NCBI GenBank assembly: GCA_000002445.1 | Contig: CP000069.1 | Coordinates: 1,120,001 to 1,184,000, forward strand | Direction of reading: 5' to 3' | DNA length: 64,000 nt | From: Trypanosoma brucei | Lineage: Eukaryota | Shown: piece after piece, positions 1-32,096 of the stretch | How the letters are laid out: every line of letters begins with the position of its first letter | How positions within the stretch are numbered: position 1 is the stretch's first letter | Notes under the pieces: model-generated | The model's database searches: none | What the model was told of the DNA's origin: nothing | Seen by the model: the letters and a program-made list of their open reading frames with translations, nothing else | Position numbers and translations under genes: made by a program

Positions 1-230
1 CAGTGGGAAGGAATTGAGATAAGCAACAGAACATATCGGTAACGCGCAACCTCCGCAACACTGAGGAAAGAAACGGAAAACGCACTCGCACACACGCACG
101 AACATGATACTCTCACATAGTCCTCATTCGGCTCGGACATTCAACACAACCGCAGGCATACTATTCTTAAGCCAGGAGCCTCTTCACACCACCCCAATGG
201 AGAGTTTCCAGCAACATACTTCGCTACTTA

Positions 231-857: not shown

Positions 858-1337
858 CGTCACGTTGCGGTTTCGACAGACGGCATTCACCCTTTGATGC
901 CATGGAAAGAAAAGCAAACAAGCAAAAAAAAAGGTGGAATGTACTCAGAGATGGAGAGAAACATGAAGAGGAGCGGAACAGAAATGGGGTCGATAATATC
1001 AAAGAGAGTAAAGGGAAGAAAGAAGAGAGGCAACTGACTAACAGGTGAGAGGAAAATTGTCGCACCGTCTTTTCATTAACAACGGAGACAGCAAACGCAC
1101 AGACAAACCGTCAGCCCTTTCTTTCACACCGACACACACACACAAATATATGTATATATATGTATATATCATTTTCTGCATTTCATCGTACCATAATAAA
1201 GTAGCAAATGTTTACAAAATATAAATTACAGCAATAAATAACTAGCGATTAAAGAACAAATACACCTACTCATGACGACTGCACAGTGACATTCACACGC
1301 GGCTATACAGCAGTAAACCCGAAAACACAAGTTAAGC

Positions 1338-2777
1338 TTAATCCACTTCCTCCATACGCAGCACCTTGCACCAGTGGGTAGCCTGCCCAGCCCGTCGCTG
1401 AATTTTATCAGTGTCAAGAAGTTTGGGGTCTACATCGATTAGCTCACTGGTTTCTTCCGTGCATAACTCAAGTTGACGGACTCTGTAATGGAAAGTTTCA
1501 TCCACAGACTTGGTGAAAAAGAGGGAAACGCACGCGTTCATCAGCACACCTCTACAGTCGCGTAATATCCTCTGCGCCTCCTGAAGAACAGTGAGCGTTC
1601 TGTCAAACGACTCCTTCCGGTCTCGAAGTTGGGCGAGTTCGCGCGCTCGCTCCAAACCTTTTCCCAGTGATTGTTCCTCAAGGACGAGGCTCCTCTTGTG
1701 GTTGGTCCATCTTGTGTAATAACTGAGAAAGATCTTTTCAGCGGTGACTTCTCCCACTGATTCACCCCTCTGACACTGATAATACATGTTGTTATGCTGC
1801 ACCCAGGGACCAAGACAAACCCAACAGTATTCGTGGCGGCACCTTGTGCACGTCATATGATTGCAGCCCTTGTCCTTTTCGATCGGGACATGACAATTTG
1901 GACACTCTTTGGTATTCGACTGAATGTACACTAATGAAGGTTCGTACTCTTTAATCAACTTCCTCCACTTCTCTAGCATCTCACAGGTTGCGGGGGCATG
2001 GGGCTTCCCAGTGCATTTGAAACAGAACTGCAGATCACACCTCGCACAACAAACGTCCGGTCCGGACCGCCGAGGGACAGCGACTCGAACGATTCCTTCA
2101 CACGGCAATTCGTTGGGGCAACAACGCATGCTTGGGTGGTTGCTAAGGTACTCGGTGAGAAACCGTTGCTGGGCACGCTTTAATTCCTGCGGCGGCAGCA
2201 ACAATTCCAAAGCGCTCATTGTTACGAGACTACAGCACCCTTGTTTGGGACACCGTCTCTCCAGTAAGTCCTGAGATTTGTTGACGGCGTACACAAGATT
2301 TCTTCTCAAACATTCCGCGCAGAAAAAGTGATGGCACCTCGCGAGCGCCACTCCGTCACCAACACTAACACTTTCCTCGCATACAGGGCACACAATTGGT
2401 TCAGTATTTTTTACCAATGGCGGACCCTGTCCAACACCATAAGTAATACCTGTGGTTGAGTAGTCTGTTATATTCAGTTGACAGTTGATGCTACTTTGTG
2501 AATTCATGTAGTTCTCAAGCGTGTCGTCATCCAATTTCCAGTTATAGTGTCGAAGAACCAAAAACGCAGCCTCTTCTGGGAGGTCAAGGATTTCACTAGC
2601 CTTCTCCACGTCATCGTGGAGTTCCTTCATAGCATCACGAGCCGAAACCGTAGTAAAGATGGTTAAAATAGTGGACATGCCTTCCGGTTGCCCCGCCATA
2701 CCAAAGTGGGCCACGTCAAACGACTGATCGTCGTGATCACAAACATCATCGATATTGCCACACGAATTAACGTTCAT
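1338..2777 (-). CDS. RBR (RING1-IBR-RING2) E3 ubiquitin ligase, Ariadne-like
   Basis: RING1 is CPVCEESV...CHHFFCAECL. The IBR is a Cys-rich CCPNE...CCARCDLQFCFKC. RING2/Rcat is CPNCHVPIEKDKGCNHMTCTRCRHEYCWVC, with the catalytic Cys in GCNHMTC. The N-terminal region is acidic. The start ATG is at 2775..2777. Confidence 0.8.
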   Translation of the reverse strand: MNVNSCGNIDDVCDHDDQSFDVAHFGMAGQPEGMSTILTIFTTVSARDAMKELHDDVEKASEILDLPEEAAFLVLRHYNWKLDDDTLENYMNSQSSINCQLNITDYSTTGITYGVGQGPPLVKNTEPIVCPVCEESVSVGDGVALARCHHFFCAECLRRNLVYAVNKSQDLLERRCPKQGCCSLVTMSALELLLPPQELKRAQQRFLTEYLSNHPSMRCCPNELPCEGIVRVAVPRRSGPDVCCARCDLQFCFKCTGKPHAPATCEMLEKWRKLIKEYEPSLVYIQSNTKECPNCHVPIEKDKGCNHMTCTRCRHEYCWVCLGPWVQHNNMYYQCQRGESVGEVTAEKIFLSYYTRWTNHKRSLVLEEQSLGKGLERARELAQLRDRKESFDRTLTVLQEAQRILRDCRGVLMNACVSLFFTKSVDETFHYRVRQLELCTEETSELIDVDPKLLDTDKIQRRAGQATHWCKVLRMEEVD

Positions 2778-3076
2778 AAATTTTTTAAAAAATTAAACAC
2801 TGGGTGACCGAGTACTCTTACCCTCCACACACTAATTTTGCTCTTACGAAGTCCTAAGGGGTGTAAAAGAGTTACAAAATGGATTTTCTACATGTTAAAA
2901 CTAAAAGTAGGAACACATAACAACCTCATTAAATGCCCTCATACTGGTAAGCAAGGGTAAATGCAAATAGACCCCAACATGCAGATGAATAATACAAAGA
3001 TAGCGACGCGTTCTCTTAAACGTATTCGTTAAAGAGGTGGTGGAGGGGGCTGTTAATATAAGATAACAAAAACTGC

Positions 3077-5464
3077 TTACTTCATCGACACACTTTGCCC
3101 AAGTGCCCATCGTTTATACCATTCCACGTCCATGGGGCTGACGCGGGGCCTCACCTTCTGCAACGCGGCATCAACGTTTTCGGTAGAAATGTACGGACTC
3201 TTTACCCCAGCCGTCACACACTGAAAGGCTGCTTCCTTGATAACTGCAACAACCTCGGCGCCAGTGTAACCCTCCGTCCGAGCAGCCACATAATCCGCAT
3301 CGAGTTCCGGCGATAAAGGTATATTTCGAAATTGAATGCTGGCAATCATCTTCCGCTCATTGATGTCCGGCAGCCCAACATAAACCTTTCGGTCTATGCG
3401 ACCAGGACGTAGAACCGCCGGGTCTATGTTATCAGGGCGATTTGTGGCGGCGACAAACACCAATGCATCTGTACCCTCGTTGAGAGCAGCAGGAAGACCG
3501 TCTAGTTCGGTTAAAAATTGAGAAATAACACGATCTGCCACACCACCACGACCACGATGTCCGCACATACCATCAAGCTCATCGATGAAGACAACACATG
3601 GTGCGGCGGCACGAGCACGCGCAAAAATGTCACGAACTGCCTTCTCGCTGTCACCGACCCACTTTGAGAATACCTCAGGCCCTTTAACCGAAACGAAATT
3701 CATTTTAGACTCATTGGCGAGCGCCTTCGCCAACATTGTTTTGCTGCACCCCGGGGGACCGTACAAGAGGACTCCTTTCGGTGGTGAAAGATTGAACTTA
3801 CGAAACACCCACTGCTGCTTTCCGAGGCACCATGCCACACAGTCCTGCAGCGTCTTTTTGGCCACTTCGCTACCCCCAATATCACTCCATTTTACGGACG
3901 GAATAGAAACCTGAAACTGTCTAAGAGCAGATGGAGGCACAATCTTTATCGCCTCTGTTATAGAGGAATCGGTTATTTCAGTCTTCCCAGTTTCCTTAAA
4001 TGCTTCAATGGATGCCACGTCAAGTAATCGAACGAGGTCCCGCTGAGTGAAGCCATTCGTCGACTCAGCCGCTAGAGAAACAAAACTTGCCGTAACTTTC
4101 GCTTGCCCCCCAAATGTTTTCAGACGGTTTTGAAGGAACTCGCGACGCTCCTCTGCGGACCCAGGTGCCAGTAATTTTACCTGCTCACCAAAACGGTCGT
4201 ATGTTAGTAGTGACCGTGGTAAAGACTCCACAGAAGCAGCAGAACCCACAACGCGTACATCCAACTGACGAATCCGAATGTCATCTAGTTCACTAGCCAG
4301 AGTGGACGCTAACAGTCCCTTTGCCCACCCAGATTCAACAACTCCATTGTCTCCAGTGGCACAGACAAGATGAAGGTCATCAATGATTACCGTGGACGGG
4401 GCGCCAGCTTTCGCGCGAACAAATACTTCTCGAAGAACGGTCGAAGAGGAGATATCACACATGTTTCCCTGAGACAACACCTCAACACTCACCGTTTCCA
4501 CCTGCCGTGAGTGAAGAGTTGCAGCCTCATGCGCCTCCCTCCTCAAAAAGTAACTCTTACCGGTGCCTGTATCCCCCAACACGAGTAAGTGAGATTGCTT
4601 TTTTTCCACCCCAACCGGCACAGGTTCGCCATCAAACAACTCAGTTTCACAGACTGTACCGCGCCCAATATACCTAATCTTCGACCCATCGATAAGAATC
4701 CCCAAATCGATTTGTCGGACATCCGTATCGCCCTCAACGCATCCCTCAGCTACGGATTTACAACAACATTCCAACACATCAACGTAATATGGAACCGTGC
4801 CAACATGCAAGGCAGCTCGCATCCCGCGGAACACCAGCCGCCGTTGATACCGCCGGCGAAATGCAGAACACACTTGAAGGAATGGAATGTCGGTGGAGCT
4901 TGTCAACCCATCTGCACCAACAGCGATTCGTGCTTCCTTTGTTATTTCCAAAACCAGAGACGAGAGCGGTATTAGAGGACAGATGTCCTTAGCAACAGAT
5001 ACAGTCACCTGTTTCCCACTGAATGCAGCAGCCACTTCATCAGCAAGCATAATGGTCTGTGAAGCACATGAAGAGGAACAAAATGCCTCTACGAATGCCC
5101 GAACAGATCCATCACCTTCCACACACAACACCGCTCCACTAATGATTCCTAACTCCTTTAAAGAGTGAGGCGAAAGCCGTGCCTCATTGGAGGGCAAACA
5201 ACTATCTGAACGGACATTCAGGGAAACTGCCACGAAGCTTTTACTTCCTTCACTGCCACAATTAACGTCGGCAACCTTCGCCCCGGACAACACTGAGGTA
5301 GTGGATTTCATGTCATTGTGTCGCATATGTTCACCGCGTTGATTAGGGATTTTTAAGCGCGCATCTCCACCAGCACCGCCACCGGAACCATCATGATGGT
5401 TATTTTCATTGTTGCTACCACGCCGCCCTTCACGGTGGTTCGGCCGCCTTGCTTTGGCGCCCAT
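3077..5464 (-). CDS. type II AAA+ ATPase with two ATPase domains, D1 degenerate; Cdc48/PEX1/PEX6/NVL-like
   Basis: D1 carries a Walker A-like GDTGTGKS. D2 is canonical: GPPGCSKT, then VFIDELD as Walker B, the FVSVKGPEVFSKWVGDSEKAVR signature, and an SRH ATNRPDNIDPAVLRPGRIDR. The N-terminus is basic. The ATG is at 5462..5464. Confidence 0.8.
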   Translation of the reverse strand: MGAKARRPNHREGRRGSNNENNHHDGSGGGAGGDARLKIPNQRGEHMRHNDMKSTTSVLSGAKVADVNCGSEGSKSFVAVSLNVRSDSCLPSNEARLSPHSLKELGIISGAVLCVEGDGSVRAFVEAFCSSSCASQTIMLADEVAAAFSGKQVTVSVAKDICPLIPLSSLVLEITKEARIAVGADGLTSSTDIPFLQVCSAFRRRYQRRLVFRGMRAALHVGTVPYYVDVLECCCKSVAEGCVEGDTDVRQIDLGILIDGSKIRYIGRGTVCETELFDGEPVPVGVEKKQSHLLVLGDTGTGKSYFLRREAHEAATLHSRQVETVSVEVLSQGNMCDISSSTVLREVFVRAKAGAPSTVIIDDLHLVCATGDNGVVESGWAKGLLASTLASELDDIRIRQLDVRVVGSAASVESLPRSLLTYDRFGEQVKLLAPGSAEERREFLQNRLKTFGGQAKVTASFVSLAAESTNGFTQRDLVRLLDVASIEAFKETGKTEITDSSITEAIKIVPPSALRQFQVSIPSVKWSDIGGSEVAKKTLQDCVAWCLGKQQWVFRKFNLSPPKGVLLYGPPGCSKTMLAKALANESKMNFVSVKGPEVFSKWVGDSEKAVRDIFARARAAAPCVVFIDELDGMCGHRGRGGVADRVISQFLTELDGLPAALNEGTDALVFVAATNRPDNIDPAVLRPGRIDRKVYVGLPDINERKMIASIQFRNIPLSPELDADYVAARTEGYTGAEVVAVIKEAAFQCVTAGVKSPYISTENVDAALQKVRPRVSPMDVEWYKRWALGQSVSMK

Positions 5465-5879
5465 GTCGCTGTTATGCGTGACTTAACCCTTGCACGCAAC
5501 TAATGGTACGTACTGGGTTTAACACGCTCTACACCACAAAGGCGATTACACACAGGCACCAAAAAAAAAGGTACAAACAACGAAAAAAAACATATATGGA
5601 GAAAATTTGAGATGAAAAACACAGAAATATATAACAATACCTGTCTAAAGCAACGCATAAGAACATGGCAAAGGCGAAAGTAAACAACCACATCCCAATT
5701 TATCAAAGAAAAAAAATTATACTTTAGTTCTTTATTTACGACCGGTGGTTTCTCTTCTCTTCAATTTTTATAATGTCAAAAACATGAGTGACAATAATAT
5801 TTAAAATAATGGTAATAATATGAACGACAGTAATAATAGGACGTTGAGAACAATCTCAGCTTCCTTTCCCTCCCTAGAC

Positions 5880-6400
5880 AATCTCACATGCTCACAAAAA
5901 TCATGAACACCAAACAAAATCCAATCACACATTCTGCGTGTCTCTTTTCTATTTTATCGGCTGAAACACCGAACAAAATCAAAAAAATAATAATAATAAT
6001 CAACCTCTTTCCTTCTTTTTAACCGCCACCTCTGGACAAAAAAATTATTATCTCAAAAACTTTCAACAAACATAGCTTTAACACAAAGCTACCAAACATC
6101 ATACCAAACAACAACACAACCACGAATATACTGGGAAAAATTAAACCCTCAACACAGCACATAAAAAAAATTCAAAAACAAAAAACACACCAAATAATAC
6201 CGAACATCGAAAGGAGAAAAAACATTTGTTCTTACCAACAAGAAAAGAATAAAATAAAACACAAAAATCAGCATGTGTTTTTAAAAACAAAAAAATAAAA
6301 ATAAAAAAAGAACAAAATCAAAAGTAAAAAATATATAGAATCCTGCATAAAATAGGCGTAAACATTTTTTTAAAAATGACTCAGTAATGCATCCACCAAC
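5880..6400 (-). promoter_or_regulatory. U-rich (transcript sense) intergenic region: mtHSP70 3' UTR and polypyrimidine tract/trans-splice region for the downstream AAA-ATPase gene
   Basis: The + strand here is strongly A-rich with long A runs and AAT/AAC repeats, i.e. U-rich on the minus-strand transcript. It lies between the mtHSP70 stop at 6408 and the AAA ATG at 5464. Confidence 0.3.
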
Positions 6401-6407
6401 ATTTCAC

Positions 6408-8381
6408 TTACTCCTTCTTTTCACCAGATGCCTGCTGCTGTTGTTGCTCACCCTGACCTTCTGTGCTGCTGCTACCAGAGCTACCGCTGTTCGCTGCTGC
6501 CGCCTGTTGGTACTCCGTGCGACCACATTCCATCACTGCCTTTTGCAGTTTGTCAGTAGAAGCCGACAGTTCATCCTTCGTCACGTTTGGATTCTCCATC
6601 ACCTTGCGAAGTTCAGCCAAAAGGGTACGCACATTCTCCTTCTCAGCGTCCGTCACGTACTTCCATTCCGTCAGTTGTCGCTCAGCAGTGTTAGCCTGAG
6701 TCTCAGCATTGTTACGCACTTCCACAAGCTCCCGCTTCACACGGTCAGCTTCAGCGTGCATCTCAGAGTCGCGGATCATGTTCTCGATCTGCTCCTTCGT
6801 CAACCCACCATGAGCAGTAATGGTGATGTTCTGTGTTTTCCCAGTTGCCTTGTCCTTCGCAGTTACGTGGCAAATACCATTAGCATCAATGTCAAATGTC
6901 ACCTCAATTTGTGGTACACCGCGTGGTGCAGGAGGAATTCCAACGAGGTCAAACTGACCCATCATTTGGTTGTCAGATGCCATTTCTCGTTCCCCTTGGA
7001 ACACTTTGATTCCGACCTGTGTTTGGTTGTCCGCAGCAGTTGAGAAGGTTTGACTCTTCTTCGTCGGGATTGTTGTGTTCTTGGGAATCATACGTGTGAA
7101 GACACCACCAAGTGTTTCGATTCCAAGTGATAGTGGTGTAACGTCAAGCAATACAAGACCCTTCACATCACCACGGAGAACACCACCAAGTGTTGCAGCA
7201 CCCAGTGCAACGGCCTCGTCAGGGTTCACACCACGGAACGGTTCGCGACCGAAGAACTGCTTCACAGCCTCCACAACCTTTGGCATACGCGTCATACCAC
7301 CAACAAGCACAACCTCAGAGATTTCCTTCAGGTCAACAGCAGCGTCCTTGATGCATTGCTTGCACGGTCCAAGTGAACGTTGTACGAGCTTATCAGCAAG
7401 GGACTCAAACTTGCTGCGGCTCACCATCATCTGCACGTGCTGCGCTCCGTCCTGGTTAGCTGTGATAAACGGAAGGTTTACCTCCGTCTCCATCGTCGTC
7501 GAAAGTTCACACTTCGCCTTTTCTGCAGCCTCACGAATACGCTGCAGTGCCATCCGCTCCTTGCTCAAGTCAATTCCAGATGTCTTGCGGAATTCCTCCA
7601 GAATGTGATCAGAGAGGCAGAGATCAAAGTCTTCTCCACCAAGGTGAGTGTCGCCATTCGTTGCCTTTACCTCAAAAACACCTCCGGCAATTTCAAGTAC
7701 GGAGATATCAAATGTTCCACCACCAAGATCATACACGGCAATTAAGCTGTCCTTCGTTTTGTCCAAGCCATATGCCAGTGCAGCAGCAGTCGGTTCATTC
7801 ACAACACGGATCACATTCAGTCCAGCAATCGTACCGGCATCCTTCGTTGCCTGACGTTGCGCGTCATTGAAGTACGCGGGGCACGTCACCACAGCGTTAG
7901 ATACTTTGCGTCCCAGGAAGTTTTCTGCCGTTTCCTTCATCTTCTCAAGTACGAATGCACCAACTTGTGAAGGTGAGTATTGCTTCCCATTCCCATCTTG
8001 CACCCACGCATCACCATTATTGCTCCGAATAATCTTGTAGGGCACATTCTTGATGTCGTGTTGGATGTGCTCATCATCGAAGCGACGACCAATCAGCCGT
8101 TTCACCGCGAAGAATGTCGACTGTGGGTTCGTAATCGCCTGACGTTTCGCTGCAAGGCCAACAAGTTTTTCCTGTCCTTTGAACGCAACCACAGACGGTG
8201 TCGTCCTGAAACCCTCTGTATTCTCAAGTACGCGTGGCCGGTCACCTTCCATTACTGCAACACAACTGTATGTCGTACCCAAATCAATACCAATCACGTC
8301 ACCAGTTACCTTCGATGACTGCCACCGCGCAAACGGGGCAGACGCCAGGCACATGGGTGCGCATACACGACGGGCCAACAT
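6408..8381 (-). CDS. mtHSP70: mitochondrial HSP70 (DnaK/mortalin/Ssc1 orthologue) with N-terminal presequence
   Basis: The protein has full-length HSP70 hallmarks: [32 protein letters not shown] and an EEVD-less Q/E-rich tail. It starts with [20 protein letters not shown], which looks like a mitochondrial targeting peptide. The reverse complement of 8361..8381 reads ATGTTGGCCCGTCGT. Confidence 0.95.
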
Positions 8382-8439
8382 TTTATTACTTCACAAACTA
8401 CTTCTTACCTTAGAAATACTTTACCACTTACCAACTTAT

Positions 8440-8478
8440 CTATTAAACCGATAAGAAGAAGCATTGAGTGGGAGAATG
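8440..8478 (-). promoter_or_regulatory. candidate polypyrimidine tract (8450..8478) and SL trans-splice acceptor AG (8440..8441) for mtHSP70
   Basis: The + strand gataagaagaagcattgagtgggagaatg reverse-complements to cattctcccactcaatgcttcttcttatc on the transcript. The first downstream AG (aatAG) lies about 58 nt before the ATG. Confidence 0.35.
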
Positions 8479-8948
8479 TTTTTTTTTTTAAACAGCTTTA
8501 GAACTTTGTTCAATAGTTGTTGATATATGTTATTGCTTTCTGTTGTTTTTTTTTAATTTAGTTGTGTAGATAAAAAAATTGTGACACATACTTGGAAAAT
8601 AGTATCTTATTTGTTTTCCTTGGCAGTCACTAGTGTAACGTTGTTTTTCTTGTTAAGCTTAACAGGTTTTAACGTTATACTGTGTTACTGCACGAACAAG
8701 CATTGAAAGAATAATTCTTTTTTTTCTAAGTGACTGAATTTTTTCTTTTTCCAACTGCCTTACCATTCATAAAGAGGTTGTGGAAACTTTTTGTTCGTCT
8801 CTTTGTGGCGGTGTGTTTCGGTACAAAATTGTTTCAAGCACCCCACTTCTGACCTGTGAGCAACTGTTGTATTAAACGCTCCTTTACTTGTAATTGTTTC
8901 ACCTGTTTTGGTGACATCACTTGCTCTTCAAACTCTTTGTTGTTATTT

Positions 8949-10484
8949 TCACAACGCTCGAATAAGGAAGATTTTCTTCTCGTTTACCACTTCAAAATAT
9001 GGGGAAATTCCTTCATGGTAGAGCTGCAGCACGCGGCTCCAATACGACTCACCTCCTATGATAGTTGAGAGAACAGACTGTGCACGTAGCTGCCTTTCTT
9101 CCACCTGCGCAAATTGAGAGATCGCCGTATAGCAGTAATTAAAAACAGCCTGCAAGTGGGCCGCCTTTTCCAACCGATAAGTGAGATTATGTCCCTCGTT
9201 ACTGGGATCCAAGACGCTTATTTGCGCATTGGGGTGCACCTTACTCGTTGGTTCTCTCAAGCCACGTGCTGTTACAGAGTGAGAAAACATGTCAAAATTT
9301 GCACAGAACCCATACGTGAGGAAAAAATCCATCAGCAACCTGCCAGTGTCAGGTGTGTCGTTGGCATCGTATGAATTAAAAATAGCTACAAGCATTGTGG
9401 CAACTGCTTCGCTATTCAGTGCTTCCGGATTCGTGCCTGTGTCATCGAGGATTTTGTTTTGTCTAAGTAAAGCGTCGAGGAGGAGAAACGTCTGCCGACA
9501 TGCCTCGTTCGACGCGACAGCGGAGGCGAAAAGCCTTGATGCCACTTCCACCCTGCATGCCTCAGCTCCATATCGTACGTTCATTCGCAGACCGGACCGA
9601 CTGTCAGTAAGTAGTAGACACATCACATTCCGATAGTCATAGCAAAATTCCAACTGGAACCCTGCGTTATTGGTGATACTCTGCAGGTGCATCTGCGTGT
9701 ACTGTTTTGCATCGGGTGTCACAACCGTGTTTTTGGCATAAAAATGAAGTGTCATGTCCTTCAGCGGGGGTAACCCAGCAGCCGTTGTTGACATCGGATG
9801 CAGCTCCGCGGTCGGCCATAGCTCCCGCAACATAGCCGTGACTGAGGTGACGACAGCCTCGTAACAGTAGAGTTCCAATGCTGTTGGACGTAAGAATGAT
9901 GAAAATAGCCTCACTTCCTCAGTTACTGTATCTGGCACACTCATGCCGATACACCATGGGGGATGCGGCCGGCAGGTGCGGGCCAGTGTCTTTAATAATG
10001 GTCTGGTCGCAACCAGCACCACATTTGTTGTGTCTATGGCCTGCTCATGAGACACTGTACAGGCTGGGGTGGAACGCAAGGTGGAGCGGCGCGAGCTCGT
10101 TGAGCTGGAGGGGCGGCGCATTTTGCGGAACATATTCGGCGTTCCAAGACTTCCAATATTAGCCTGAGACCCGCCAAACGACACCGGAGTAAACTGTTCC
10201 CTACGGTCACTTGGTTGAGCATAACCTGAAGGTACTGGTGACGATATTGAAGCCTGCCTCCCGTGTTGCTGGGAGCCGCTGTTGGCAACTCTCTCAGCAT
10301 CGTCTACAGGACCAAACATCCGCACAAGTGCAACTCCGGGTGCTTCCAGTATCCGATGTATATTTCCAAACAGCGCGAGAGAAATGCAGATATAGAAAGC
10401 GGAGAAGAAAAGGCAAGCATTCAGACAGATCACCAATTGTACGTGTTTATGTTGCGAAAAAGAAAAGAAGACGGAATTAACCAT
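8949..10484 (-). CDS. Cid1/TUTase-family nucleotidyltransferase-fold protein with PAP-associated domain; catalytic motif degenerate (likely pseudo-enzyme)
   Basis: The NTase core reads LWPTAELHPMSTTAAGLPPLKDMTLHF. In the Cid1 consensus the glycine-serine is replaced by ST here. The expected SD.D reads KDMT here. The PAP-associated domain reads GRLLMDFFLTYGFCANFDMFSHSVTARGL. There is an ATG at 10482..10484. An alternative in-frame ATG at 10317..10319 (MFGPVDD...) is preceded by an AG-rich stretch on the + strand and may be the real start. Confidence 0.55.
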   Translation of the reverse strand: MVNSVFFSFSQHKHVQLVICLNACLFFSAFYICISLALFGNIHRILEAPGVALVRMFGPVDDAERVANSGSQQHGRQASISSPVPSGYAQPSDRREQFTPVSFGGSQANIGSLGTPNMFRKMRRPSSSTSSRRSTLRSTPACTVSHEQAIDTTNVVLVATRPLLKTLARTCRPHPPWCIGMSVPDTVTEEVRLFSSFLRPTALELYCYEAVVTSVTAMLRELWPTAELHPMSTTAAGLPPLKDMTLHFYAKNTVVTPDAKQYTQMHLQSITNNAGFQLEFCYDYRNVMCLLLTDSRSGLRMNVRYGAEACRVEVASRLFASAVASNEACRQTFLLLDALLRQNKILDDTGTNPEALNSEAVATMLVAIFNSYDANDTPDTGRLLMDFFLTYGFCANFDMFSHSVTARGLREPTSKVHPNAQISVLDPSNEGHNLTYRLEKAAHLQAVFNYCYTAISQFAQVEERQLRAQSVLSTIIGGESYWSRVLQLYHEGISPYFEVVNEKKIFLIRAL

Positions 10485-11401
10485 TGTGATGTTAAACAGA
10501 GGAAGTGAACAAATTTATTATCTGCTGTTGCTTAATATTGATATTTGCAATCATAATAAAAGGGGTTTCCACTTCATTAGAGTATCGCATCACGATGTGC
10601 TTCACCTACTTCGCGTCCCCTTCATTTTGTGTACTCCCAACGTGCGCCAACCATCACCAAACCCCTTCATGAGGAAACTGCAGTGGAGGCTCACTAATGT
10701 CCAAAGTGTATCCTACAATAAACGAAACAAACAAACAAACATAATAGTAGGAGTAAACGCCTCTTCAGTATTTAGTTTGTACACCAACATAATGAGACAA
10801 GGAATTGCGTGCCGGATACCTCCTCCCACAACCATTCCATTCACTCAATCACACATAAATGAACACAAATACTTTTGCATCCGATTAATACTCTACTCTA
10901 CTACAACTCTTTATTGCCTCACCAACTGTGATGTTGAATCGATGGCGACGAAAGTTGATGACGGCTAAACCGTGTTAACGACAAAATCATCAGCTTCATT
11001 GAAATAACCTTCAGTGAAATGAGAGATGAATGGTGAAGAAAAGAAGCACATATACATTTTCTGTAGCGGCACGCAAATATGTTAACCGGAAGGACGCTCA
11101 TCTCTGCAAGACAACGAAAAAAGAAATGAAAAGTAACATACAAAAATAGACAGCACATTAACTCGCTTCTTCCTTCATTGTCCCAATAACTAATTGACAG
11201 AAAGCAACCTGTTAATGCAAACACCAAGGGTATGGAAAAAAAAAATTGTATAAATCATACATGTACATAACCAACAAGACGAACTGCTGCACGAAAACTC
11301 CGAAGAGAAAATACAGGGGAGACAACAACGCAAGGACTTCATTTTTACTCTCTCTTTTTTTTGTCTAACTAAAAAAATAAAACATAAAACATCTGCTATC
11401 A

Positions 11402-13945
11402 CTATAGCGTACATCCCTCCGGTTGCAGTGGCGACCGACGGATCACCGGCGCTGAACCCAAAACGCTAATGATGTCACGAAGTCGTGCGGCATGTATGTC
11501 TGCGAACGTGCTTTTGCTCATTGACTTTTCGGACAGTTCCCTCAACACTGGCCTCGGTGTAAGCGGCTCGACTTCCATGATCGCTTTGTTAACATTGTCA
11601 TATGTAATTACATTCACTCCGCCTTCCTGGTCCACACGCTCCGAGTACAATGTGAGGCGCTCAATTAAGTTGCAGTAGAATAAAATGGCGGATGCACATT
11701 CCTGATCGAAGAAGGTGGACATGAACTTCCCACTCAAACTAATTAGACCTCCCACATCGTGAGTTGTGTCGACACCCAAAGCCTCCTTTAAAAGGGCTAC
11801 ATCCTTCTCTGTTTTCAATTGTAAAACAGGTGCAATGCAGTCAGCGACAGCAGTGCGACGCAGCCGTGACCGTTTCTGCGCCGTAGCAAGTTCCTTCAAT
11901 TCCGTTCGCACATTTTCAATGATAGCTATTACATCACACGCCAGTCGACTCGGGTATATGCCATCCAAAATTCCCGTCAACAATTTAAGTGAAGGTCGGC
12001 ACCGCTCTCTGCTACGCGCAATGTAATCCATGTTGATGGCGAGGTGCTCCGGTTGCGTGAACTTTTCCAACCCAGGCCTTGTTTCAATAACAGAATTAAG
12101 GTAGTGCAAGTAGATTTTTGGGACGTCGATTGTGGGAAGGAGAACGTCCGGGTGCTCAACCAGTGTGCTGGAGAAGAAGTCGTGAACAATTGAAAGCACT
12201 GTCATCTGATCCAACTCAACGTAGGGCACGACGCCGGCTGCGCACAGATGTACCGGATTGTTTTTATTCTGACACCGACCTATCATGGGGGGATGAGGTG
12301 TTTCTACTTTCATGGGAACCATTGCCCGTCTGTCCACTTCATTCGAAAGGGAGTGGATCTGTTCAACAAGGAAGTCTACCTGAAGCACCGTTTCAGTCAT
12401 ACCTGGAACCACAGATGTTATAGCCTCGTCACCTTCAAGCGGGAGAGCTCGGACAGATTTGACGTATTCCTTCAACGCAGGGACCTTTTCATGGACTTCA
12501 TCCCACTTGGGCCGAGGAGTCATTACATCGCGCTGAATGTCTGCATTAAGAAGTTGCGCATTTTCCTCCTTTATGGCTTTAAACTTCCTTCCCATAACAT
12601 CCACCTGCATTCCCCTAACAGCGGCAGCCCGACGGTTGTGACGACCAGCGGCTTGGGCTGCTTGCAGTTCAGCCATCAGTTGTTCCTTCACGATGTTGTG
12701 ATCGGTAATGGAGATAAACTGGCTGTATTTTTCCTTGAACTCCTCAAGCTCACTTTGAGCTTCACCCGCCATGATTTTGAACTCACTCAGTTCGTCAACC
12801 TTGCTCACCAGGTCCTGATACTCCTTCTCTACCTTTTTCGCTCGCTTGTCACTTTCCCGCAAGGCGGCAATCAGCACAAGCACCTTCTCAAGGTGATCCT
12901 TGTTGGTTTCTTCTAATTTCTGTATCGTTGCATTGGCGCGAAGAAGATTCCTTTCCATTTTCTTGAAACCTTTCAATGAGCGGCGACCTGGTTGAGGCAC
13001 CACAATAGGTGCCGTATCTCCTTCCTCTGTTACCTCGTCGTCACCGTCATCTTCGAGTTCATCACGTACCTCTTTTAGTTCTGCAGTAAGCCGAGTGATG
13101 GTTGAGTTCAATTCTTGCACCTCCATCCCTCGCTGAGCAACCACACGCTCCTGTCTCTGTCGCTCATTCATAGACTCAATTAGCATTGCGGCCTGTTCTT
13201 GAATAACACCATCGTAAGCCGACATAATATCGTTCAAGATTTGGCTATACGCGGGGAACGCATCAATGAGTACAAAAAGTGCCTCACGAAAAGGTCGAAG
13301 GCGACTTTGGGCTGTGCAAACGCCTCCTTCATCAACGGCCACACTTACTTCTTTCTGTAGGTACTGCGCCAGCGTTGTAGCAAGAGGCGGTGGATCTCGT
13401 CCAGAAGACATAAAGGAGTTCATTGTTTGTGCCATGCCGCCGCCAGTCTCTAGAAAAGATGTAGTTGCTGCCCCCCACTTAGTGTCCGTAGACTTTGACA
13501 GCATACTTTTAAGGGATTTGAAACTTTCAACGCTCCCTTGAACGGGTTTCCGAGGGCTGCAGCGATTACTCGAACTTTCACCAGGGAGCGGCTGAACAAT
13601 TTTTCTCCCCGTCCTTCCCCTGACGGGTTCTTTTATCGGGATGCCCTTGCGGCTGCCGGTGTTACCCGATGCGGCCGCTGCGTCGTTGGTACCAGTGTCT
13701 GCTCCTTCTGCCGTCTTTTGGCGATTTAAAGCACTTTTAGTGTCCTTAAGCCCACCTTGCAGCACTCCTAAGTTGTTTGGATTTGCGGGCCAGGCTGCGG
13801 TTCCTCGTTTGGATTGAAGAAGCGGGTTATATGGTAAGGTGGGCAAATGCATTCCACTGTTCAGTGCCGCTGACGGCATGCAGGGTGATGTCATGTACAA
13901 CACCCCCTTAACTGGCATTGTACCAGAATAAACGGAGGATTCCAT
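11402..13945 (-). CDS. hypothetical large coiled-coil protein
   Basis: This is an 847-codon ORF counted from the first ATG at 13943..13945 (MESSVYSG...). The track start at 14092 is TTG and overlaps an AG-rich PPT. A central heptad-rich, E/K-rich segment (residues ~330-480) predicts a coiled coil. Confidence 0.6.
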   Translation of the reverse strand: MESSVYSGTMPVKGVLYMTSPCMPSAALNSGMHLPTLPYNPLLQSKRGTAAWPANPNNLGVLQGGLKDTKSALNRQKTAEGADTGTNDAAAASGNTGSRKGIPIKEPVRGRTGRKIVQPLPGESSSNRCSPRKPVQGSVESFKSLKSMLSKSTDTKWGAATTSFLETGGGMAQTMNSFMSSGRDPPPLATTLAQYLQKEVSVAVDEGGVCTAQSRLRPFREALFVLIDAFPAYSQILNDIMSAYDGVIQEQAAMLIESMNERQRQERVVAQRGMEVQELNSTITRLTAELKEVRDELEDDGDDEVTEEGDTAPIVVPQPGRRSLKGFKKMERNLLRANATIQKLEETNKDHLEKVLVLIAALRESDKRAKKVEKEYQDLVSKVDELSEFKIMAGEAQSELEEFKEKYSQFISITDHNIVKEQLMAELQAAQAAGRHNRRAAAVRGMQVDVMGRKFKAIKEENAQLLNADIQRDVMTPRPKWDEVHEKVPALKEYVKSVRALPLEGDEAITSVVPGMTETVLQVDFLVEQIHSLSNEVDRRAMVPMKVETPHPPMIGRCQNKNNPVHLCAAGVVPYVELDQMTVLSIVHDFFSSTLVEHPDVLLPTIDVPKIYLHYLNSVIETRPGLEKFTQPEHLAINMDYIARSRERCRPSLKLLTGILDGIYPSRLACDVIAIIENVRTELKELATAQKRSRLRRTAVADCIAPVLQLKTEKDVALLKEALGVDTTHDVGGLISLSGKFMSTFFDQECASAILFYCNLIERLTLYSERVDQEGGVNVITYDNVNKAIMEVEPLTPRPVLRELSEKSMSKSTFADIHAARLRDIISVLGSAPVIRRSPLQPEGCTL

Positions 13946-14371
13946 GATGTTAACAGAAACGGCTTTTCCCGCACCTTCCTGTGCAATATTTCCTATGAAG
14001 AAAGTTTCAAGTTTAGCGGGTTGAGTAGGGAAAATAGGGAGGTAGAACGAATAAAGAAGAAAAGGATATTTCTTTCCCCCTTTTTTGCCCAAAAGCCCAG
14101 AGCGGAGTTACCCTCTGGAAGCGCCTTTCTCCTTCTATGCAACACTACATTTGTAATCATAATATGGGAACAAGAAGCAAACGGTATGAAAGCAAAGCGA
14201 GAAGGAAACGGTTAAGCATATGAATAAGAAACGAGACAAAGTAAAACAAGATTAAATAGCAACAAAAAATAATAAAAATAAAACACAGTGGTTACATGAT
14301 CTGCATTTTTTTTTCTGGATGGTATTAAGTGCACGTAATTTAAAAAAAAATAATACGATAGCACTACAGGA

Positions 14372-14660
14372 TCATATTCGAAAAGAAGAAAAGGAAAATA
14401 AGCTCACCACCTTCTCAACGAAAGAAAGGGGTTTTAAATAATAATAATAGTTATTATTATTATTATAGTAACGGCGGGAGAGTTGTTCACGCTTACAAGA
14501 GCATATGTATACAAGAGAGAGGTGAAAAAAGGGAAAATATAAAATATTAAAAAATGGTAAGATAAAAATAAAGATAACGTATGGAGATGATGAGCATAAA
14601 AATGACGCGGACAATCCGAGAAAAAAGAAAAAAATAAGCGATGGGTTGTCATTTTAATAT
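14372..14660 (-). promoter_or_regulatory. polypyrimidine-tract region upstream of the 11402..13945 gene
   Basis: The + strand is AG/A-rich (aaaagaagaaaaggaaaataag..., (TAA)n, gagagaggtgaaaaaagggaaaat). This is C/U-rich in transcript sense. Confidence 0.3.
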
Positions 14661-15394
14661 TATTTCAAAAGAAGCGTTATTTGTCATTATGCAACATCAT
14701 ATATACACTCAATGAAGCATATGTTTCGCTTACAGAAAGAATAAATAAAGAACTCACGTCAAAACGAGTCACTAATAAAGAACGGCATAGTTAAACCCTT
14801 TCCCACTAATATTTTTTTTCTTAAAAAAGAAAAAAATACACCCGACCGCTCTTTTTATTTTATTTTATTTTTTGCACCTATGGATCGTTTGTACCGAAGA
14901 AAAAAAAAAGAGGCAAATCCACAGATATTAGATTCTGGACACACCCTTTTGCATGAAACCACGCTGAAACGATTACAATTAGCCATTCGAATGCGTAAGC
15001 ACTTTATGTGCATCTATATGATGGACCTGAAGGTGACAACAAAAGTTAACCAACATTTAACGATCTCTCTCTCTCTCTCTCTTTGTGTAAGGAATAACCA
15101 ATAAATAAAACAAACGAGGATTATTACAAAAGTGTGCAATAAAAAGAAAGAAAGAATCAACCGTTTTCACTCAGGTAGCAAAAATAACAACAGCTGTAAC
15201 ACTGACAAAAAAACAGTGATGTCATAAATAGTTACATATATATATATATATATAGACTTCAATGGCTTAATGCCCGTTAAGTTCGAAAAGGAATCTGTTT
15301 TTTTGACATCTTCATACAAATACACCGCACTTCCATAAAGTTTCGTTCATGCACGACACACCACAAAAGAAGCGCAAATGGAGAACTGTTGCCA

Positions 15395-16744
15395 TTACCG
15401 CACCTCAAATATTCCCCATATCAAACCTCCTTCATTCCTATTAATGAGTTTCAATGTTTCCTCGGCATCGTAGGCACCCTCCTCATGTTTGAGCGTAGTG
15501 GCTGAGTTTCCAGTGATCTCTCGAATCCTCAGTTTCCCTTCACGTACTTTTCCAACACGAGTGAAGACAAGCGGCTGATCCATTTGGTCCCTTTCCTCTT
15601 CCAGAATAGTACGGTACATCACACCCAGTTTTGCCTTTAGATGTTTTTCAGGTGTCGTTGCATCGTTTCCTACGTGCCGTAGTTCCTTCTTCGCCTCCTG
15701 CAATGCACTGCAGTTTATAAAGCCACCATAGTTAGAGAAATCCACAGGTTCTAAAGTTTCCTCTTGCATTTGATATTCAAAGGCGCGATAGCACCGCTCA
15801 ATAATGTCGTTGGGATTTAGATCCTGTGCACCAACAAGATACACTTCATGTTGGAATGGAGACAGAATGCTTTCGATGATTGGGCTCACCTTACTATACG
15901 AGTCACGCGGAACCGCCCCCAGCTGATCACCAATCCACTGAAAGGATACTACACGTGTCATCCGGTGGCCTTTAACACACAATGTAATGCGAAATAGGCC
16001 GAATAACCATAAGGTATGCGGTAGGTTGCGCACAAGTTCATACACACCACCATTTCCCGCATTCCTTAAGCACAACTCAACAGGGTTGGCTGCGAATGTC
16101 ACCCAATTCAGTGAACCAAGTCGGTTTCGCACTGCGTTAAGTACCCTCTCCACAGTCCCCGATACTACGCAAGTGGAAAAAGGTACGGAGTGCTCCATCA
16201 TTAATGAATCCGTACTCGTCATTCCATCATCACCATCACCATACTCCATATCAACGCTTCCTCTACTACCTCGACTAACTGACGAAAGTTCCACAGAACC
16301 GAGATGTGGTGGGAAACTAAAATAAAAGCTTCCTTCCTGTTCCTGAATCCGTTGCTGGAACTCCTTTATGATCTGTGCTATGGAAAAGTTCCCCAAATCA
16401 GAGACGAATACTGTCCGCATGCGCTCGACAAGATGATGAAGTGAAAGAGAAGATTTCTCCGTCACTGTTATACCCGCTGATCCCTTTAATTTATCGCGAA
16501 AGCTATTCATATATGTGAGGCACCGCCCACGCTTCACATTCCCACACTCGGGTCCGATGAACATCACTGAGATAAACTTGTTGCGCTTGAATGTCCCCTT
16601 TCCAATGGGAAAACGTGCATAAAGAAGTTGTACTTTCCTCTCATCCAATAATTCAAACCCCTTTTCAATATCTTCACCACTTCTAGCCACACATACGACA
16701 TTCGTCTCTATTCTACCACCGTTGCTATTGTTTTCCAGTGGCAT
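15395..16744 (-). CDS. ADF-H (actin-depolymerising-factor homology) domain-like protein, possibly two ADF-H domains (twinfilin-like)
   Basis: The N-terminal segment KVQLLYARFPIGKGTFKRNKFISVMFIGPECGNVKRGRCLTYMNSFRDKL matches the ADF-H/cofilin core pattern. A second, weaker ADF-H-like segment lies at the C-terminus (PLVFTRVGKVREGKLRIREI...GLIWGIFEV). The first ATG is at 16742..16744; the track start is TTG. Confidence 0.5.
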   Translation of the reverse strand: MPLENNSNGGRIETNVVCVARSGEDIEKGFELLDERKVQLLYARFPIGKGTFKRNKFISVMFIGPECGNVKRGRCLTYMNSFRDKLKGSAGITVTEKSSLSLHHLVERMRTVFVSDLGNFSIAQIIKEFQQRIQEQEGSFYFSFPPHLGSVELSSVSRGSRGSVDMEYGDGDDGMTSTDSLMMEHSVPFSTCVVSGTVERVLNAVRNRLGSLNWVTFAANPVELCLRNAGNGGVYELVRNLPHTLWLFGLFRITLCVKGHRMTRVVSFQWIGDQLGAVPRDSYSKVSPIIESILSPFQHEVYLVGAQDLNPNDIIERCYRAFEYQMQEETLEPVDFSNYGGFINCSALQEAKKELRHVGNDATTPEKHLKAKLGVMYRTILEEERDQMDQPLVFTRVGKVREGKLRIREITGNSATTLKHEEGAYDAEETLKLINRNEGGLIWGIFEVR

Positions 16745-17039
16745 ATCGGGCCCAATACCACGCAAGGCAATGAATTTGCTCCTTACCGCGAAAAGAACAG
16801 GCAAATATTAACGATAATAATAACAATATCTTAACAATGGTTTTACTAATACGAACTTAGACTATGTGATACGACGGGAAAGAGGGGGGATTTTCTATTG
16901 CCTTGATCTTAAATCAAATCACTATCGTCAATAGTATCGGATAATGAAGAAGTTTTTAAATATATATATGTATGTATATATATCCTAATTTGCGTAAATG
17001 ACTTCCGCTACTCCTTTTTTGAAGTTACTTTGTCATTAC

Positions 17040-17215
17040 AAACTAATTTTATTAAAACGTTGTGAAAAAAAATATAAAGAAGAAAAAAAAGAAGAAAACA
17101 CAAAAGAAAATAAGTAAATAATAAATAAATCGATAAATAAATAAAGATATGGAAAGAAACTAGAGCTCGCCCCCCACACGCACACACACGAAGGACAGCA
17201 CCAGAGCGAAAAAAA
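17040..17215 (-). promoter_or_regulatory. polypyrimidine-tract region upstream of the ADF-H-like gene
   Basis: The + strand is AG-rich (gaaaaaaaatataaagaagaaaaaaaagaagaaaacacaaaagaaaataag...). Confidence 0.3.
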
Positions 17216-17279
17216 AAACACTCAACACATTCGGAATGAACAGGAGTAACTTGAATGAGGCGAAAGGACGTGGGAAGGT

Positions 17280-19887: not shown

Positions 19888-20253
19888 GATTTCCTTTTCT
19901 GTGTTTTTTTTTTCCTTTTCCTTCTTTAATCTGCTGTTCAGACGCTCTTGTTCTTCACCTTTAAAAGGAAACCTTTTTATTTTTTTAAATAAAGCTCCGT
20001 ATTCCGCGTGCTTACCTTTAATTCTTTTTCCTTTTTCTTTGGATGCTTGAGAACCTAAACCCCAGTATGTTGCGTGGTTGAGCGTGTTTAGAACAGTTTA
20101 ACGAAAGGAGAGAAAACGCAAGCGGTTCAATGGAAACGAAACACGAGATGACAAGTATTACCGAAGCGAAGAAAAAAAAAAAGCAATGTATTGCATAGTT
20201 GTTTCAAACGCCCCTCTTCGACTCATCCATAACTTAGGAATAAAAAAATAAAT

Positions 20254-32070: not shown

Positions 32071-32096
32071 ATATATATATATATATATATATATAC
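32071..32096. repeat. (AT)n microsatellite
   Basis: atatatatatatatatatatatatat. Confidence 0.8.

What the first reader, a model, noticed from the sequence alone, without database searches (positions are those of the whole stretch)
8949..10484. Cid1/TUTase-like nucleotidyltransferase with PAP-associated domain but degenerate catalytic DxD motif
The protein has the Cid1-family N-terminal core (LWPTAELHPMSTTAAGLPPLKDMTLHF). It also has a clear PAP/25A-associated domain (LLMDFFLTYGFCANFDMFSHSVTARGL). The glycine-serine motif of the Cid1 consensus reads ST here. The SDiD carboxylate dyad reads KDMT. This predicts loss of nucleotidyl-transfer activity. Kinetoplastids have an expanded TUTase/ncPAP family used in RNA editing and mitochondrial mRNA tailing. 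An inactive member could be a regulatory or scaffold paralogue. Start-codon choice (10484 or 10319) is also ambiguous.
Basis: partly seen in the sequence, partly recalled or inferred. Interest (0 to 1): 0.6.

Follow-up and report, generated by a model that had tools for sequence, protein, structure and literature searches.

The report
Dead Trf4-like polymerase in trypanosomes
This Trypanosoma brucei gene (Tb927.6.3810) encodes a protein with the full shape of a Trf4/Cid1-type RNA-tailing enzyme but without the residues needed for catalysis or nucleotide binding, so it most likely works as a non-catalytic binding module, and no function has been described for it.

Summary
The ORF at 8949..10484 (-) is real. 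It is T. brucei TREU927 Tb927.6.3810 (XP_845499.1), annotated "hypothetical protein, conserved".

- None of 44 kinetoplastid orthologues has a [DE]x[DE] dyad on strand β2.
- The third-Asp column is never acidic.
- The triphosphate-binding Lys is D/E or hydrophobic.
- The base-stacking Tyr is a near-invariant Glu.

The family is still strongly conserved across Kinetoplastida, so it is a functional pseudoenzyme. Its nearest relatives are an expanded diplonemid family that has already lost the third Asp, followed by canonical Trf4-type enzymes. It is not close to the RNA-editing TUTases.

The start codon is most likely ATG 10319 (M56). The first 55 annotated codons are a polypyrimidine tract followed by AG dinucleotides, and orthologues lack them.

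I call it a new variant of a known kind. Its function is inferred, not shown.

The parts
8949..10319 (-). Most likely true coding sequence of Tb927.6.3810 (M56 to stop; 456 aa, about 50.7 kDa)
   Evidence: Orthologues are 430-500 aa and have no counterpart of the first 55 annotated residues. ATG 10319 is preceded by a polypyrimidine tract and AG dinucleotides.
10320..10484 (-). Annotated N-terminal extension (codons 1-55). Probably 5' UTR / trans-splice acceptor region rather than coding sequence.
   Evidence: Pyrimidine content is 80-83% at about 10425..10370 and 70-77% at about 10485..10441. AG dinucleotides lie at 10344/10343 and 10335/10334, just upstream of ATG 10319. The translation is F/S/L/C-rich and hydrophobic (GRAVY +1.11), has pLDDT <50, and is absent from all orthologues outside T. 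brucei subspecies.
10041..10319 (-). Disordered, basic, Ser/Arg-rich N-terminal region (residues 56-148, pI 11.1)
   Evidence: pLDDT <50. Composition and pI. It aligns poorly between orthologues except for short motifs.
10137..10154 (-). Conserved short linear motif GSLGTP (residues 111-116) inside the disordered region
   Evidence: Found with the looser pattern [GS]S[LCW]G[TR][P/G] in about 30 of 36 family members that carry an N-terminus, about 21 of them with exactly GSLGTP. These include the prokinetoplastid Apiculatamorpha.
9945..10007 (-). Invariant family-specific N-terminal motif TRPLLKxLAxxCxPxPPWxxG (residues 160-180). The PW dipeptide is shared with diplonemid relatives.
   Evidence: T160 R161 P162 L163 L164 K165 L167 A168 C171 P173 P175 P176 W177 G180 are invariant in 19 orthologues. 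P and W are invariant also in the wider alignment A3.
9495..9938 (-). Pol-beta-type nucleotidyltransferase (palm) lobe, catalytically degenerate (residues about 183-330)
   Evidence: AF2 secondary structure H187-222, E227-230, E245-251, H257-274, E276-304. Aligned to the Trf4 catalytic domain.
9732..9818 (-). Former active-site segment β1-turn-β2: WP...PM-S232-T233 (canonical hGS) ... K242-D243-M244-T245-L-H247 (canonical S-D-x-D)
   Evidence: hmmalign and hhalign against canonical enzymes. 0 of 44 orthologues have [DE]x[DE] here. Position 243 is D, E or G. Position 245 is T, V, A, P, S, L, C, F or I.
9579..9581 (-). N302, at the position of the third catalytic Asp (canonical h-D-I-S on β5; here M-N-V-R)
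   Evidence: The column is V, A, C, N, T, S, F, L or I in 47 orthologues and never D or E. It is D in 54 canonical hits.
8952..9494 (-). Central / PAP-associated (PAP/OAS1 substrate-binding) lobe plus C-terminal helices (residues 331-511)
Evidence: AF2 pLDDT mostly >90. hhalign aligns it to the canonical PAP_assoc core.
9405..9476 (-). Former NTP-binding helices. D337 sits at the Cid1 K193-type Lys position. Q342-N343-K344 is a family signature. S358-E359 replaces the canonical Ser-Tyr.
   Evidence: The Lys column is K or R in 116 of 128 non-orthogroup hits, but D (29), E (6) or hydrophobic (13) in the orthogroup. The Tyr column is E in 48 of 49 sequences and D in the other, a short fragment. 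Q342, N343 and E359 are invariant in the 19 aligned orthologues.

Best explanation
Tb927.6.3810 encodes a pseudo-nucleotidyltransferase derived from the Trf4/PAPD5 (TENT4) branch of the non-canonical poly(A) polymerases.

Shown. The two-lobed polymerase fold is intact. Every element needed to bind Mg-NTP and catalyse transfer has been replaced throughout Kinetoplastida. These elements are the GS turn, the two β2 carboxylates, the β5 carboxylate, the triphosphate-binding Lys and the base-stacking Tyr. Other positions are invariant: the TRPLLK...PPW motif, QN[KR], E359-A360, the DFFLTYGF core and RAQSxLSTIIGGE.

Inferred. The protein does not add nucleotides. It uses the preserved fold, whose cleft has been re-lined and is now partly acidic, as a binding surface for a partner protein or an RNA end. 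The basic Ser/Arg-rich disordered N-terminus, with its conserved GSLGTP motif, provides RNA contact, recruitment or phospho-regulation. The most likely setting is nuclear or cytosolic RNA surveillance or mRNP control, as a non-catalytic subunit. This would resemble other dead copies of this fold: the TUT4/7 N-terminal module, NF45/NF90 and Utp22/NOL6.

Translation most likely starts at ATG 10319.

For: Homology: hhalign 99.9%, E 3e-31, to canonical Trf4-like proteins, and E 3e-42 to diplonemid relatives.

Active-site census over 49 orthogroup sequences against 128 others:
- No [DE]x[DE] on β2 in 0 of 44 orthogroup sequences.
- The third-Asp column is never acidic.
- The Lys column is never K or R.
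- The Tyr column is Glu in 48 of 49.

Purifying selection: about 60 invariant columns in 19 orthologues, from Trypanosoma to Trypanoplasma and bodonid-like sequences. An Apiculatamorpha orthologue (P0042) is in the orthogroup.

TENT4 affinity: the only PDB sequence hit is Trf4. Source annotations label P0042 and a Hemistasia relative K03514 PAPD5_7/TRF4, and a Diplonema relative cid14.

The mRNA is expressed and is not heat-shock regulated.

Start codon.
Against: No experiment bears on activity, localisation or partners.

The gene was absent from the held text of five supplements I searched: the tethering screen, the nuclear proteome, the RNP-granule proteome, TrypTag and the cell-cycle phosphoproteome. 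At least some stored files may be truncated, so this absence is weak evidence.

The folded domain is mildly acidic (pI 6.0). That does not favour direct RNA binding by the domain itself.

The β2 register is ambiguous. I could not inspect model coordinates, so the geometry of D243, T245, H247, Y249, N302 and E359 in the cleft is unknown.

One acidic residue (D243) is retained in most orthologues.
Confidence: 0.6

Rival explanations
1. It is still an active RNA nucleotidyltransferase that uses a non-canonical catalytic constellation, for example D243 with H247, N302 or E359 holding one metal.
For: D243 (or E) is kept in most orthologues. H247 and Y249 are well conserved on the same face of β2. 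E359 is near-invariant and lies in the former NTP pocket. [quoted passage not shown]
Against: No acidic residue of the triad is conserved family-wide. Position 243 is Gly in the Leishmaniinae members, and the third-Asp column is mostly hydrophobic or Cys. The triphosphate-binding Lys is replaced by Asp/Glu and the stacking Tyr by Glu, which should repel a triphosphate. From my own knowledge, I know of no Pol-beta-type NTase that is active with this combination.
Confidence: 0.07
2. It is an inactive paralogue of the kinetoplastid mitochondrial TUTase/PAP set (RET1, RET2, MEAT1, KPAP1) and acts as an accessory factor in RNA editing or mitochondrial mRNA tailing.
Confidence: 0.1
3. It is a pseudoenzyme whose role is unrelated to RNA. 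It could be a protein-protein adaptor or a small-molecule or nucleotide sensor, as MiD49/MiD51 are for mitochondrial fission.
Confidence: 0.15
4. It is a decaying gene or a chance ORF with no function.
For: Catalytic residues are lost. There is no Pfam hit.
Against: Orthologues exist across Kinetoplastida, with 42-58% identity to the T. brucei protein and about 60 invariant columns. The predicted fold is confident. The mRNA is detected at moderate read counts.
Confidence: 0.02

Closest known systems
Trf4/Trf5, PAPD5/PAPD7 (TENT4) and Cid14: the poly(A) polymerase of the TRAMP complex. The T. brucei active counterpart is ncPAP1/NPAPL, Tb927.8.1090.
   Different: All catalytic and NTP-binding residues are replaced. 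There is a family-specific invariant TRPLLK...C.P.PPW extension and a RAQSxLSTIIGGE C-terminal motif. Identity is only 13-16%. ncPAP1 is a separate gene that purifies with PAP activity (PMC8311971).
Diplonemid Trf4/Cid14-like expansion (e.g. Diplonema papillatum KAJ9463487.1, 'Poly(A) RNA polymerase cid14')
   Same: These are the closest sequence relatives outside Kinetoplastea (E 4e-27 and weaker; hhalign E 3e-42). They share the PW motif, the loss of the third Asp (N/S/V/T/C) and the C-terminal R..S.LS.II....W.R motif.
   Different: Diplonemid proteins keep GS, the second Asp, an Arg at the Lys position and mostly Ser-Tyr. Two have near-threshold PAM2 motifs. They form many paralogues, whereas I saw one T. 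brucei sequence in the orthogroup.
Known catalytically dead copies of the same fold: the TUT4/TUT7 N-terminal Lin28-interacting module, NF45/NF90 DZF domains and Utp22/NOL6
   Different: There is no detectable specific sequence relationship. Here the protein is stand-alone, with a disordered basic N-terminus and no zinc knuckles, dsRBDs or fused active module.
   Different: They are weaker matches than the Trf4/GLD-2 group. There is no sequence-level hit. The family lacks their UTP-selecting and catalytic residues.

Membership tests
Non-canonical poly(A)/(U) polymerases (Cid1/Trf4/GLD-2 type; TENT) | Two-lobe fold: a Pol-beta-type NTase palm plus a PAP/OAS1 substrate-binding (PAP-associated) domain | tested here: met
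Non-canonical poly(A)/(U) polymerases (Cid1/Trf4/GLD-2 type; TENT) | Match to the curated Pfam models (PF01909 NTP_transf_2 or PF22600 MTPAP-like_central; PF03828 PAP_assoc) above gathering score | tested here: not met
   No hit for the T. brucei protein at E<=10. Among 19 orthologues, 4 have sub-threshold PAP_assoc hits (best E 0.032), 1 has a sub-threshold MTPAP-like_central hit, and none hits NTP_transf_2.
Non-canonical poly(A)/(U) polymerases (Cid1/Trf4/GLD-2 type; TENT) | Common ancestry detectable by profile methods | tested here: met
   hhalign probability 99.9%, E 3e-31, 273 columns against 46 canonical sequences. hmmsearch of the family profile hits Trf4 in the PDB at E 4e-4.
Non-canonical poly(A)/(U) polymerases (Cid1/Trf4/GLD-2 type; TENT) | hG[GS] turn after β1 | tested here: not met
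   S232-T233 in T. brucei. In the orthogroup, Gly is often kept but Ser is replaced by I, A, L, P, T or V. GS occurs in 1 of 49 orthogroup sequences against 114 of 128 other hits.
Non-canonical poly(A)/(U) polymerases (Cid1/Trf4/GLD-2 type; TENT) | Two metal-binding carboxylates, [DE]x[DE], on β2 | tested here: not met
   0 of 44 orthogroup sequences have the dyad. T. brucei reads D243-M-T245 or T245-L-H247, depending on register.
Non-canonical poly(A)/(U) polymerases (Cid1/Trf4/GLD-2 type; TENT) | Third catalytic carboxylate on β5 (hDIS) | tested here: not met
   N302 in T. brucei. The column is never D or E in the orthogroup.
Non-canonical poly(A)/(U) polymerases (Cid1/Trf4/GLD-2 type; TENT) | NTP-binding Lys (Cid1 K193 type) and Ser-Tyr (Cid1 S211-Y212 type); Cid1 residue numbering is from my own knowledge | tested here: not met
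   The Lys column is D, E or hydrophobic in the orthogroup, against K or R in 116 of 128 other hits. The Tyr column is Glu in 48 of 49.
Non-canonical poly(A)/(U) polymerases (Cid1/Trf4/GLD-2 type; TENT) | Template-independent nucleotide addition to RNA 3' ends | not testable with these tools
   Needs a biochemical assay. Sequence evidence predicts it is absent.
TENT4 (Trf4/PAPD5/Cid14) sub-branch, by descent | Closest canonical relatives by sequence and structure are Trf4/PAPD5-type | tested here: met
Kinetoplastid mitochondrial editing/tailing NTases (RET1, RET2, MEAT1, KPAP1) | Specific sequence relationship to these enzymes and a mitochondrial presequence | tested here: not met
Pseudo-nucleotidyltransferases (dead copies of the TENT fold) | Fold retained, catalytic residues lost, sequence under purifying selection | tested here: met

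The most novel reading that the evidence does not exclude
A Euglenozoa-specific lineage of Trf4-derived proteins gave up catalysis early. The third Asp is already lost in diplonemids, and everything is lost in kinetoplastids. The lineage became a non-catalytic 'reader' or adaptor of mRNA 3' ends or poly(A) mRNPs, recruited through short motifs in its disordered N-terminus. These motifs are near-threshold PAM2 in two diplonemid relatives, an [HN]xPY motif resembling the MKT1-binding motif in non-Trypanosoma kinetoplastids, and GSLGTP across most of the family. In organisms that control genes almost entirely post-transcriptionally, this would be a previously unrecognised conserved regulator of mRNA fate.
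Probability: 0.15. Interest if true: 0.65.

Novelty: new variant of a known kind. Interest (0 to 1): 0.4.

Why it matters
Trypanosomes regulate gene expression almost entirely through RNA processing, stability and translation. Their tailing enzymes (RET1, KPAP1, ncPAP1, TUT3/4) are well studied.

[quoted passage not shown] Showing that it and all its kinetoplastid orthologues lack every catalytic and NTP-binding determinant, while staying strongly conserved, has two consequences. It removes the protein from the list of candidate enzymes. It also defines a lineage-specific pseudoenzyme family that current Pfam models do not detect.

The finding also supplies a corrected start codon, which matters for tagging and expression constructs. 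It gives testable handles: the GSLGTP motif, the TRPLLK...PPW motif and the Q342/N343/E359 cleft.

Dead copies of this fold are already known elsewhere, so the principle is not new.

Tried and rejected
- **Pfam scans.** Scans of the protein and of 19 orthologues gave no usable hit. I therefore relied on profile and structure methods.
- **AFDB50 fold search.** The library was not available.
- **Literature.** Main-text searches for Tb927.6.3810, neighbouring IDs, Q585X9, XP_845499, syntenic T. cruzi/Leishmania ID prefixes, 'PAP-associated' with brucei, and inactive TUTase terms found nothing on this gene. The ncPAP1/ncPAP2 lead was rejected because ncPAP1 is Tb927.8.1090.
- **Supplement searches for Tb927.6.3810.** There was no hit in the held text of the tethering screen, cell-cycle phosphoproteome, TrypTag, nuclear proteome or RNP-granule proteome. 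The splice-site paper has no held supplement. Some stored files may be truncated, so these are weak negatives.
- **β2 register.** I tried to settle it by sequence. HMMER against Trf4, MAFFT and hhalign against diplonemids give T245/H247. hmmalign and hhalign against canonical enzymes give D243/T245. It remains unresolved without model coordinates. A shift of two residues keeps the same strand face.
- **MKT1-type motif.** I looked for it in the T. brucei protein and it is absent.
- **Other features.** tRNA and Rfam scans of the window found nothing.
Full report
**1. What is at the coordinates**

A 511-codon ATG-to-stop ORF lies at 8949..10484 on the minus strand. Nearly all long ORFs in the window are on the same strand. 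Its translation is identical to T. brucei brucei TREU927 XP_845499.1 / UniProt Q585X9, 'hypothetical protein, conserved'. UniRef auto-names it 'PAP-associated domain-containing protein'.

The downstream neighbour at 6408..8381 is mitochondrial HSP70. Published tables give Tb927.6.3850 as a DnaJ protein and Tb927.6.3890 as RFC subunit 2 (38.8 kDa). These match the window ORFs at 20866..21735 (DnaJ domain) and 30645..31703 (352 aa). Counting genes gives Tb927.6.3810 for the ORF in question. A published supplement confirms this.

**2. Is it really a Cid1/Trf4-type fold?**

Curated Pfam models say nothing.
- The T. brucei protein has no NTP_transf_2, MTPAP-like_central or PAP_assoc hit even at E<=10.
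- Only 4 of 19 orthologues reach sub-threshold PAP_assoc scores.

More sensitive methods are unambiguous.
- phmmer against all PDB sequences finds only yeast Trf4 (E 0.023). A 19-sequence family profile finds Trf4 at E 4e-4 over 149 residues.
- An AlphaFold2 model built on the orthologue alignment is confident from residue 150 to the end (block-mean pLDDT mostly above 90). It is disordered before that.
- Foldseek against the PDB returns URT1, CutA, Trf4, Cid1, TUT1, TUT7 and GLD-2, with E about 1e-11 and target TM-scores of 0.65-0.70.
- hhalign of the family against 46 canonical Trf4/PAPD5-like sequences gives probability 99.9%, E 3e-31, over 273 columns spanning both lobes.

**3. The active site**

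An exhaustive HMM search of 1.84 billion representative proteins with a trimmed family profile returned 354 hits. They fall into three tiers.

*Tier 1: the kinetoplastid orthogroup.* This comprises 49 sequences, including fragments. They come from Trypanosoma, Leptomonas, Lotmaria, Trypanoplasma, the prokinetoplastid Apiculatamorpha, and unnamed metagenome and transcriptome sequences that I take to be bodonid-like.

*Tier 2: a large set of paralogues.* Every named member is from a diplonemid: Diplonema, Sulcionema, Lacrimia, Flectonema, Hemistasia, Artemidia or Namystynia.

*Tier 3: canonical Trf4/PAPD5-like enzymes.*

All hits were aligned to the family HMM, and the columns that correspond to the canonical functional residues were read off.

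| Element | Tier 1 (orthogroup) | Tier 2 (diplonemid) | Tier 3 (canonical) |
|---|---|---|---|
| GS turn | GS in 1 of 49; S-T in T. brucei | GS kept | GS |
| [DE]x[DE] on β2 | 0 of 44 | S-x-h-D: second Asp kept, first variable | S-D-x-D |
| Third Asp | V, A, C, N, T, S, F, L, I; never D/E; N302 in T. brucei | mostly N or S | D |
| Lys at Cid1 K193-type position | D (29), E (6) or hydrophobic (13); never K/R | Arg | K |
| Tyr of Ser-Tyr pair | Glu in 48 of 49 | mostly Ser-Tyr | S-Y |

Cid1 residue numbers are from my own knowledge. GS occurs in 114 of the 128 hits outside the orthogroup.

The picture is of stepwise decay of a Trf4-like active site within Euglenozoa, complete in kinetoplastids. 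The third Asp and both NTP-binding elements are gone as well.

*Register caveat.* The kinetoplastid β1-β2 loop differs from the canonical one by one residue. The dyad positions therefore map to D243/T245 in some alignments and to T245/H247 in others.
- D243/T245: hmmalign and hhalign against canonical enzymes.
- T245/H247: HMMER against Trf4, MAFFT, and hhalign against diplonemids.

The two registers differ by two residues, so D243, T245, H247 and Y249 all lie on the same strand face. Neither register restores a dyad. Position 243 is Gly in the Leishmaniinae members. I could not access model coordinates to settle this.

**4. It is not a decaying gene**

Nineteen orthologues share 42-58% identity with the T. 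brucei protein and about 60 invariant columns. The invariant features are:
- an N-terminal TRPLLKxLAxxCxPxPPW motif (residues 160-180);
- D283;
- Q342-N343 and E359-A360 in the former nucleotide pocket;
- the DFFLTYGF PAP-associated core;
- K415/H417 and N433;
- a C-terminal RAQSxLSTIIGGExxW motif.

The PW dipeptide and the C-terminal motif recur in diplonemid relatives. The former catalytic cleft has therefore been re-lined with a new conserved set. That suggests a retained binding function rather than an empty shell.

**5. Which branch of the superfamily?**

The evidence points to the Trf4/PAPD5 (TENT4) branch instead.
- Trf4 is the only PDB sequence hit, although T. brucei RET1, RET2, MEAT1 and TUT4 structures are in the PDB.
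- Source annotations label the Apiculatamorpha orthologue (P0042) and a Hemistasia relative as K03514 PAPD5_7/TRF4, and a Diplonema relative as cid14.
- The active T. brucei TRAMP-type polymerase is a different gene, ncPAP1/NPAPL Tb927.8.1090 (PMC8311971).
- From M56 the N-terminus reads MFGPVDDAER. It is followed by about 90 disordered, basic (pI 11.1), Ser/Arg-rich residues. In my judgement this does not resemble a mitochondrial presequence; no targeting predictor was run.

**6. Start codon**

Three observations favour ATG 10319 (M56).
- Orthologues from other Trypanosoma species and beyond are 430-500 aa. They have no counterpart of the first 55 residues.
- Those 55 codons are hydrophobic and F/S/L/C-rich (GRAVY +1.11), and are modelled with pLDDT below 50.
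- On the coding strand they consist of polypyrimidine runs. Pyrimidine content is 80-83% around 10425..10370. AG dinucleotides follow at 10344/10343 and 10335/10334, 15-25 nt upstream of ATG 10319. From general knowledge, this is the usual layout of a trypanosome trans-splice acceptor.

This is inference from sequence. I could not retrieve spliced-leader mapping data.

**7. How it most likely works**

*Shown.* The fold is intact, the catalytic and NTP-binding residues are gone, and conservation is strong.

By analogy and by descent from TENT4, I consider a role as an adaptor or regulatory subunit in nuclear or cytosolic RNA metabolism most likely. The basic disordered N-terminus and its conserved GSLGTP motif would provide RNA contact, recruitment or regulation.

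I put about 0.85 on 'catalytically dead pseudoenzyme' and about 0.4 on the specific RNA-adaptor role. The overall figure is 0.6.

Rivals:
- residual non-canonical activity (0.07);
- mitochondrial editing or tailing accessory (0.1);
- a scaffold or sensor unrelated to RNA (0.15);
- no function (0.02).

No experimental data on localisation, partners or phenotype could be found.

**8. Leads seen on the way**

In every full-length non-Trypanosoma member that has the TRPLLK anchor, an [HN]xPY motif lies 10-36 residues upstream of GSLGTP. The variants are NSPY, NRPY, NQPY, NNPY, HNPY, HCPYY, NHPY and NEPY. It is absent from all eight Trypanosoma sequences, including this one.

The published MKT1-binding consensus is (H/N)(D/E/N/Q)PY (PMC3985637). 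Only 6 of the 17 fit it strictly.

Two diplonemid relatives score just under the Pfam threshold for PAM2, the PABP-binding motif. Together these hint at a poly(A)-mRNP context for the lineage, but they are only hints.

**9. Verdict**

It is a conserved, uncharacterised, lineage-specific pseudo-TENT4 family, which makes it a new variant of a known kind. Interest is moderate at 0.4. It is useful for trypanosome RNA biology and for annotation, but dead copies of this fold are a familiar phenomenon.

Noticed in passing
Family members P0009-P0040, N-terminal regions (no counterpart in window 10041..10319): An [HN]xPY motif (NSPY, NRPY, NQPY, NNPY, HNPY, HCPYY, NHPY, NEPY) lies 10-36 residues upstream of GSLGTP in 17 non-Trypanosoma orthologues. 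It is absent from all 8 Trypanosoma sequences. It resembles the published MKT1-binding motif (H/N)(D/E/N/Q)PY, but only 6 of the 17 fit it strictly.
   Followed up: partly
Diplonemid relatives P0052 (residues 119-130) and P0058 (residues 8-17): PAM2 (PABP-interacting) motif hits lie just below the Pfam cut-off (19.9 and 16.4 bits against 20) in Trf4-like proteins that have lost the third catalytic Asp.
   Followed up: no
Hits P0050-P0177: Diplonemids carry a large expansion of Trf4-like proteins: 52 of the 128 listed non-orthogroup representatives (50%-identity clusters). These keep GS and the second Asp but have a variable first Asp, and N/S/V/T/C at the third. Every named member checked is from a diplonemid genus.
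   Followed up: partly
window 10320..10484 (-): The annotated first 55 codons of Tb927.6.3810 look like a mis-annotated polypyrimidine tract / splice-acceptor region. The same 511-aa model is carried in T. b. gambiense and T. b. equiperdum.
   Followed up: yes
window 1..64000: 24 of the 27 ORFs of at least 200 aa are on the minus strand, and the 3 on the plus strand overlap minus-strand ORFs. This fits one polycistronic transcription unit. There is no tRNA gene and no Rfam family at gathering score. GC drops to 0.32-0.39 at 14-18 kb, 20-22 kb and 26-28 kb.
   Followed up: no
window 11402..14092 (-): The upstream neighbour is an 896-aa ORF with no Pfam hit at E<=0.001. By gene order it would be Tb927.6.3820.
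   Followed up: no
window 22568..23743 (-): A 391-aa ORF has a borderline Leu/Phe-tRNA protein transferase (PF03588) hit, 22.3 bits against a cut-off of 22.7.
   Followed up: no
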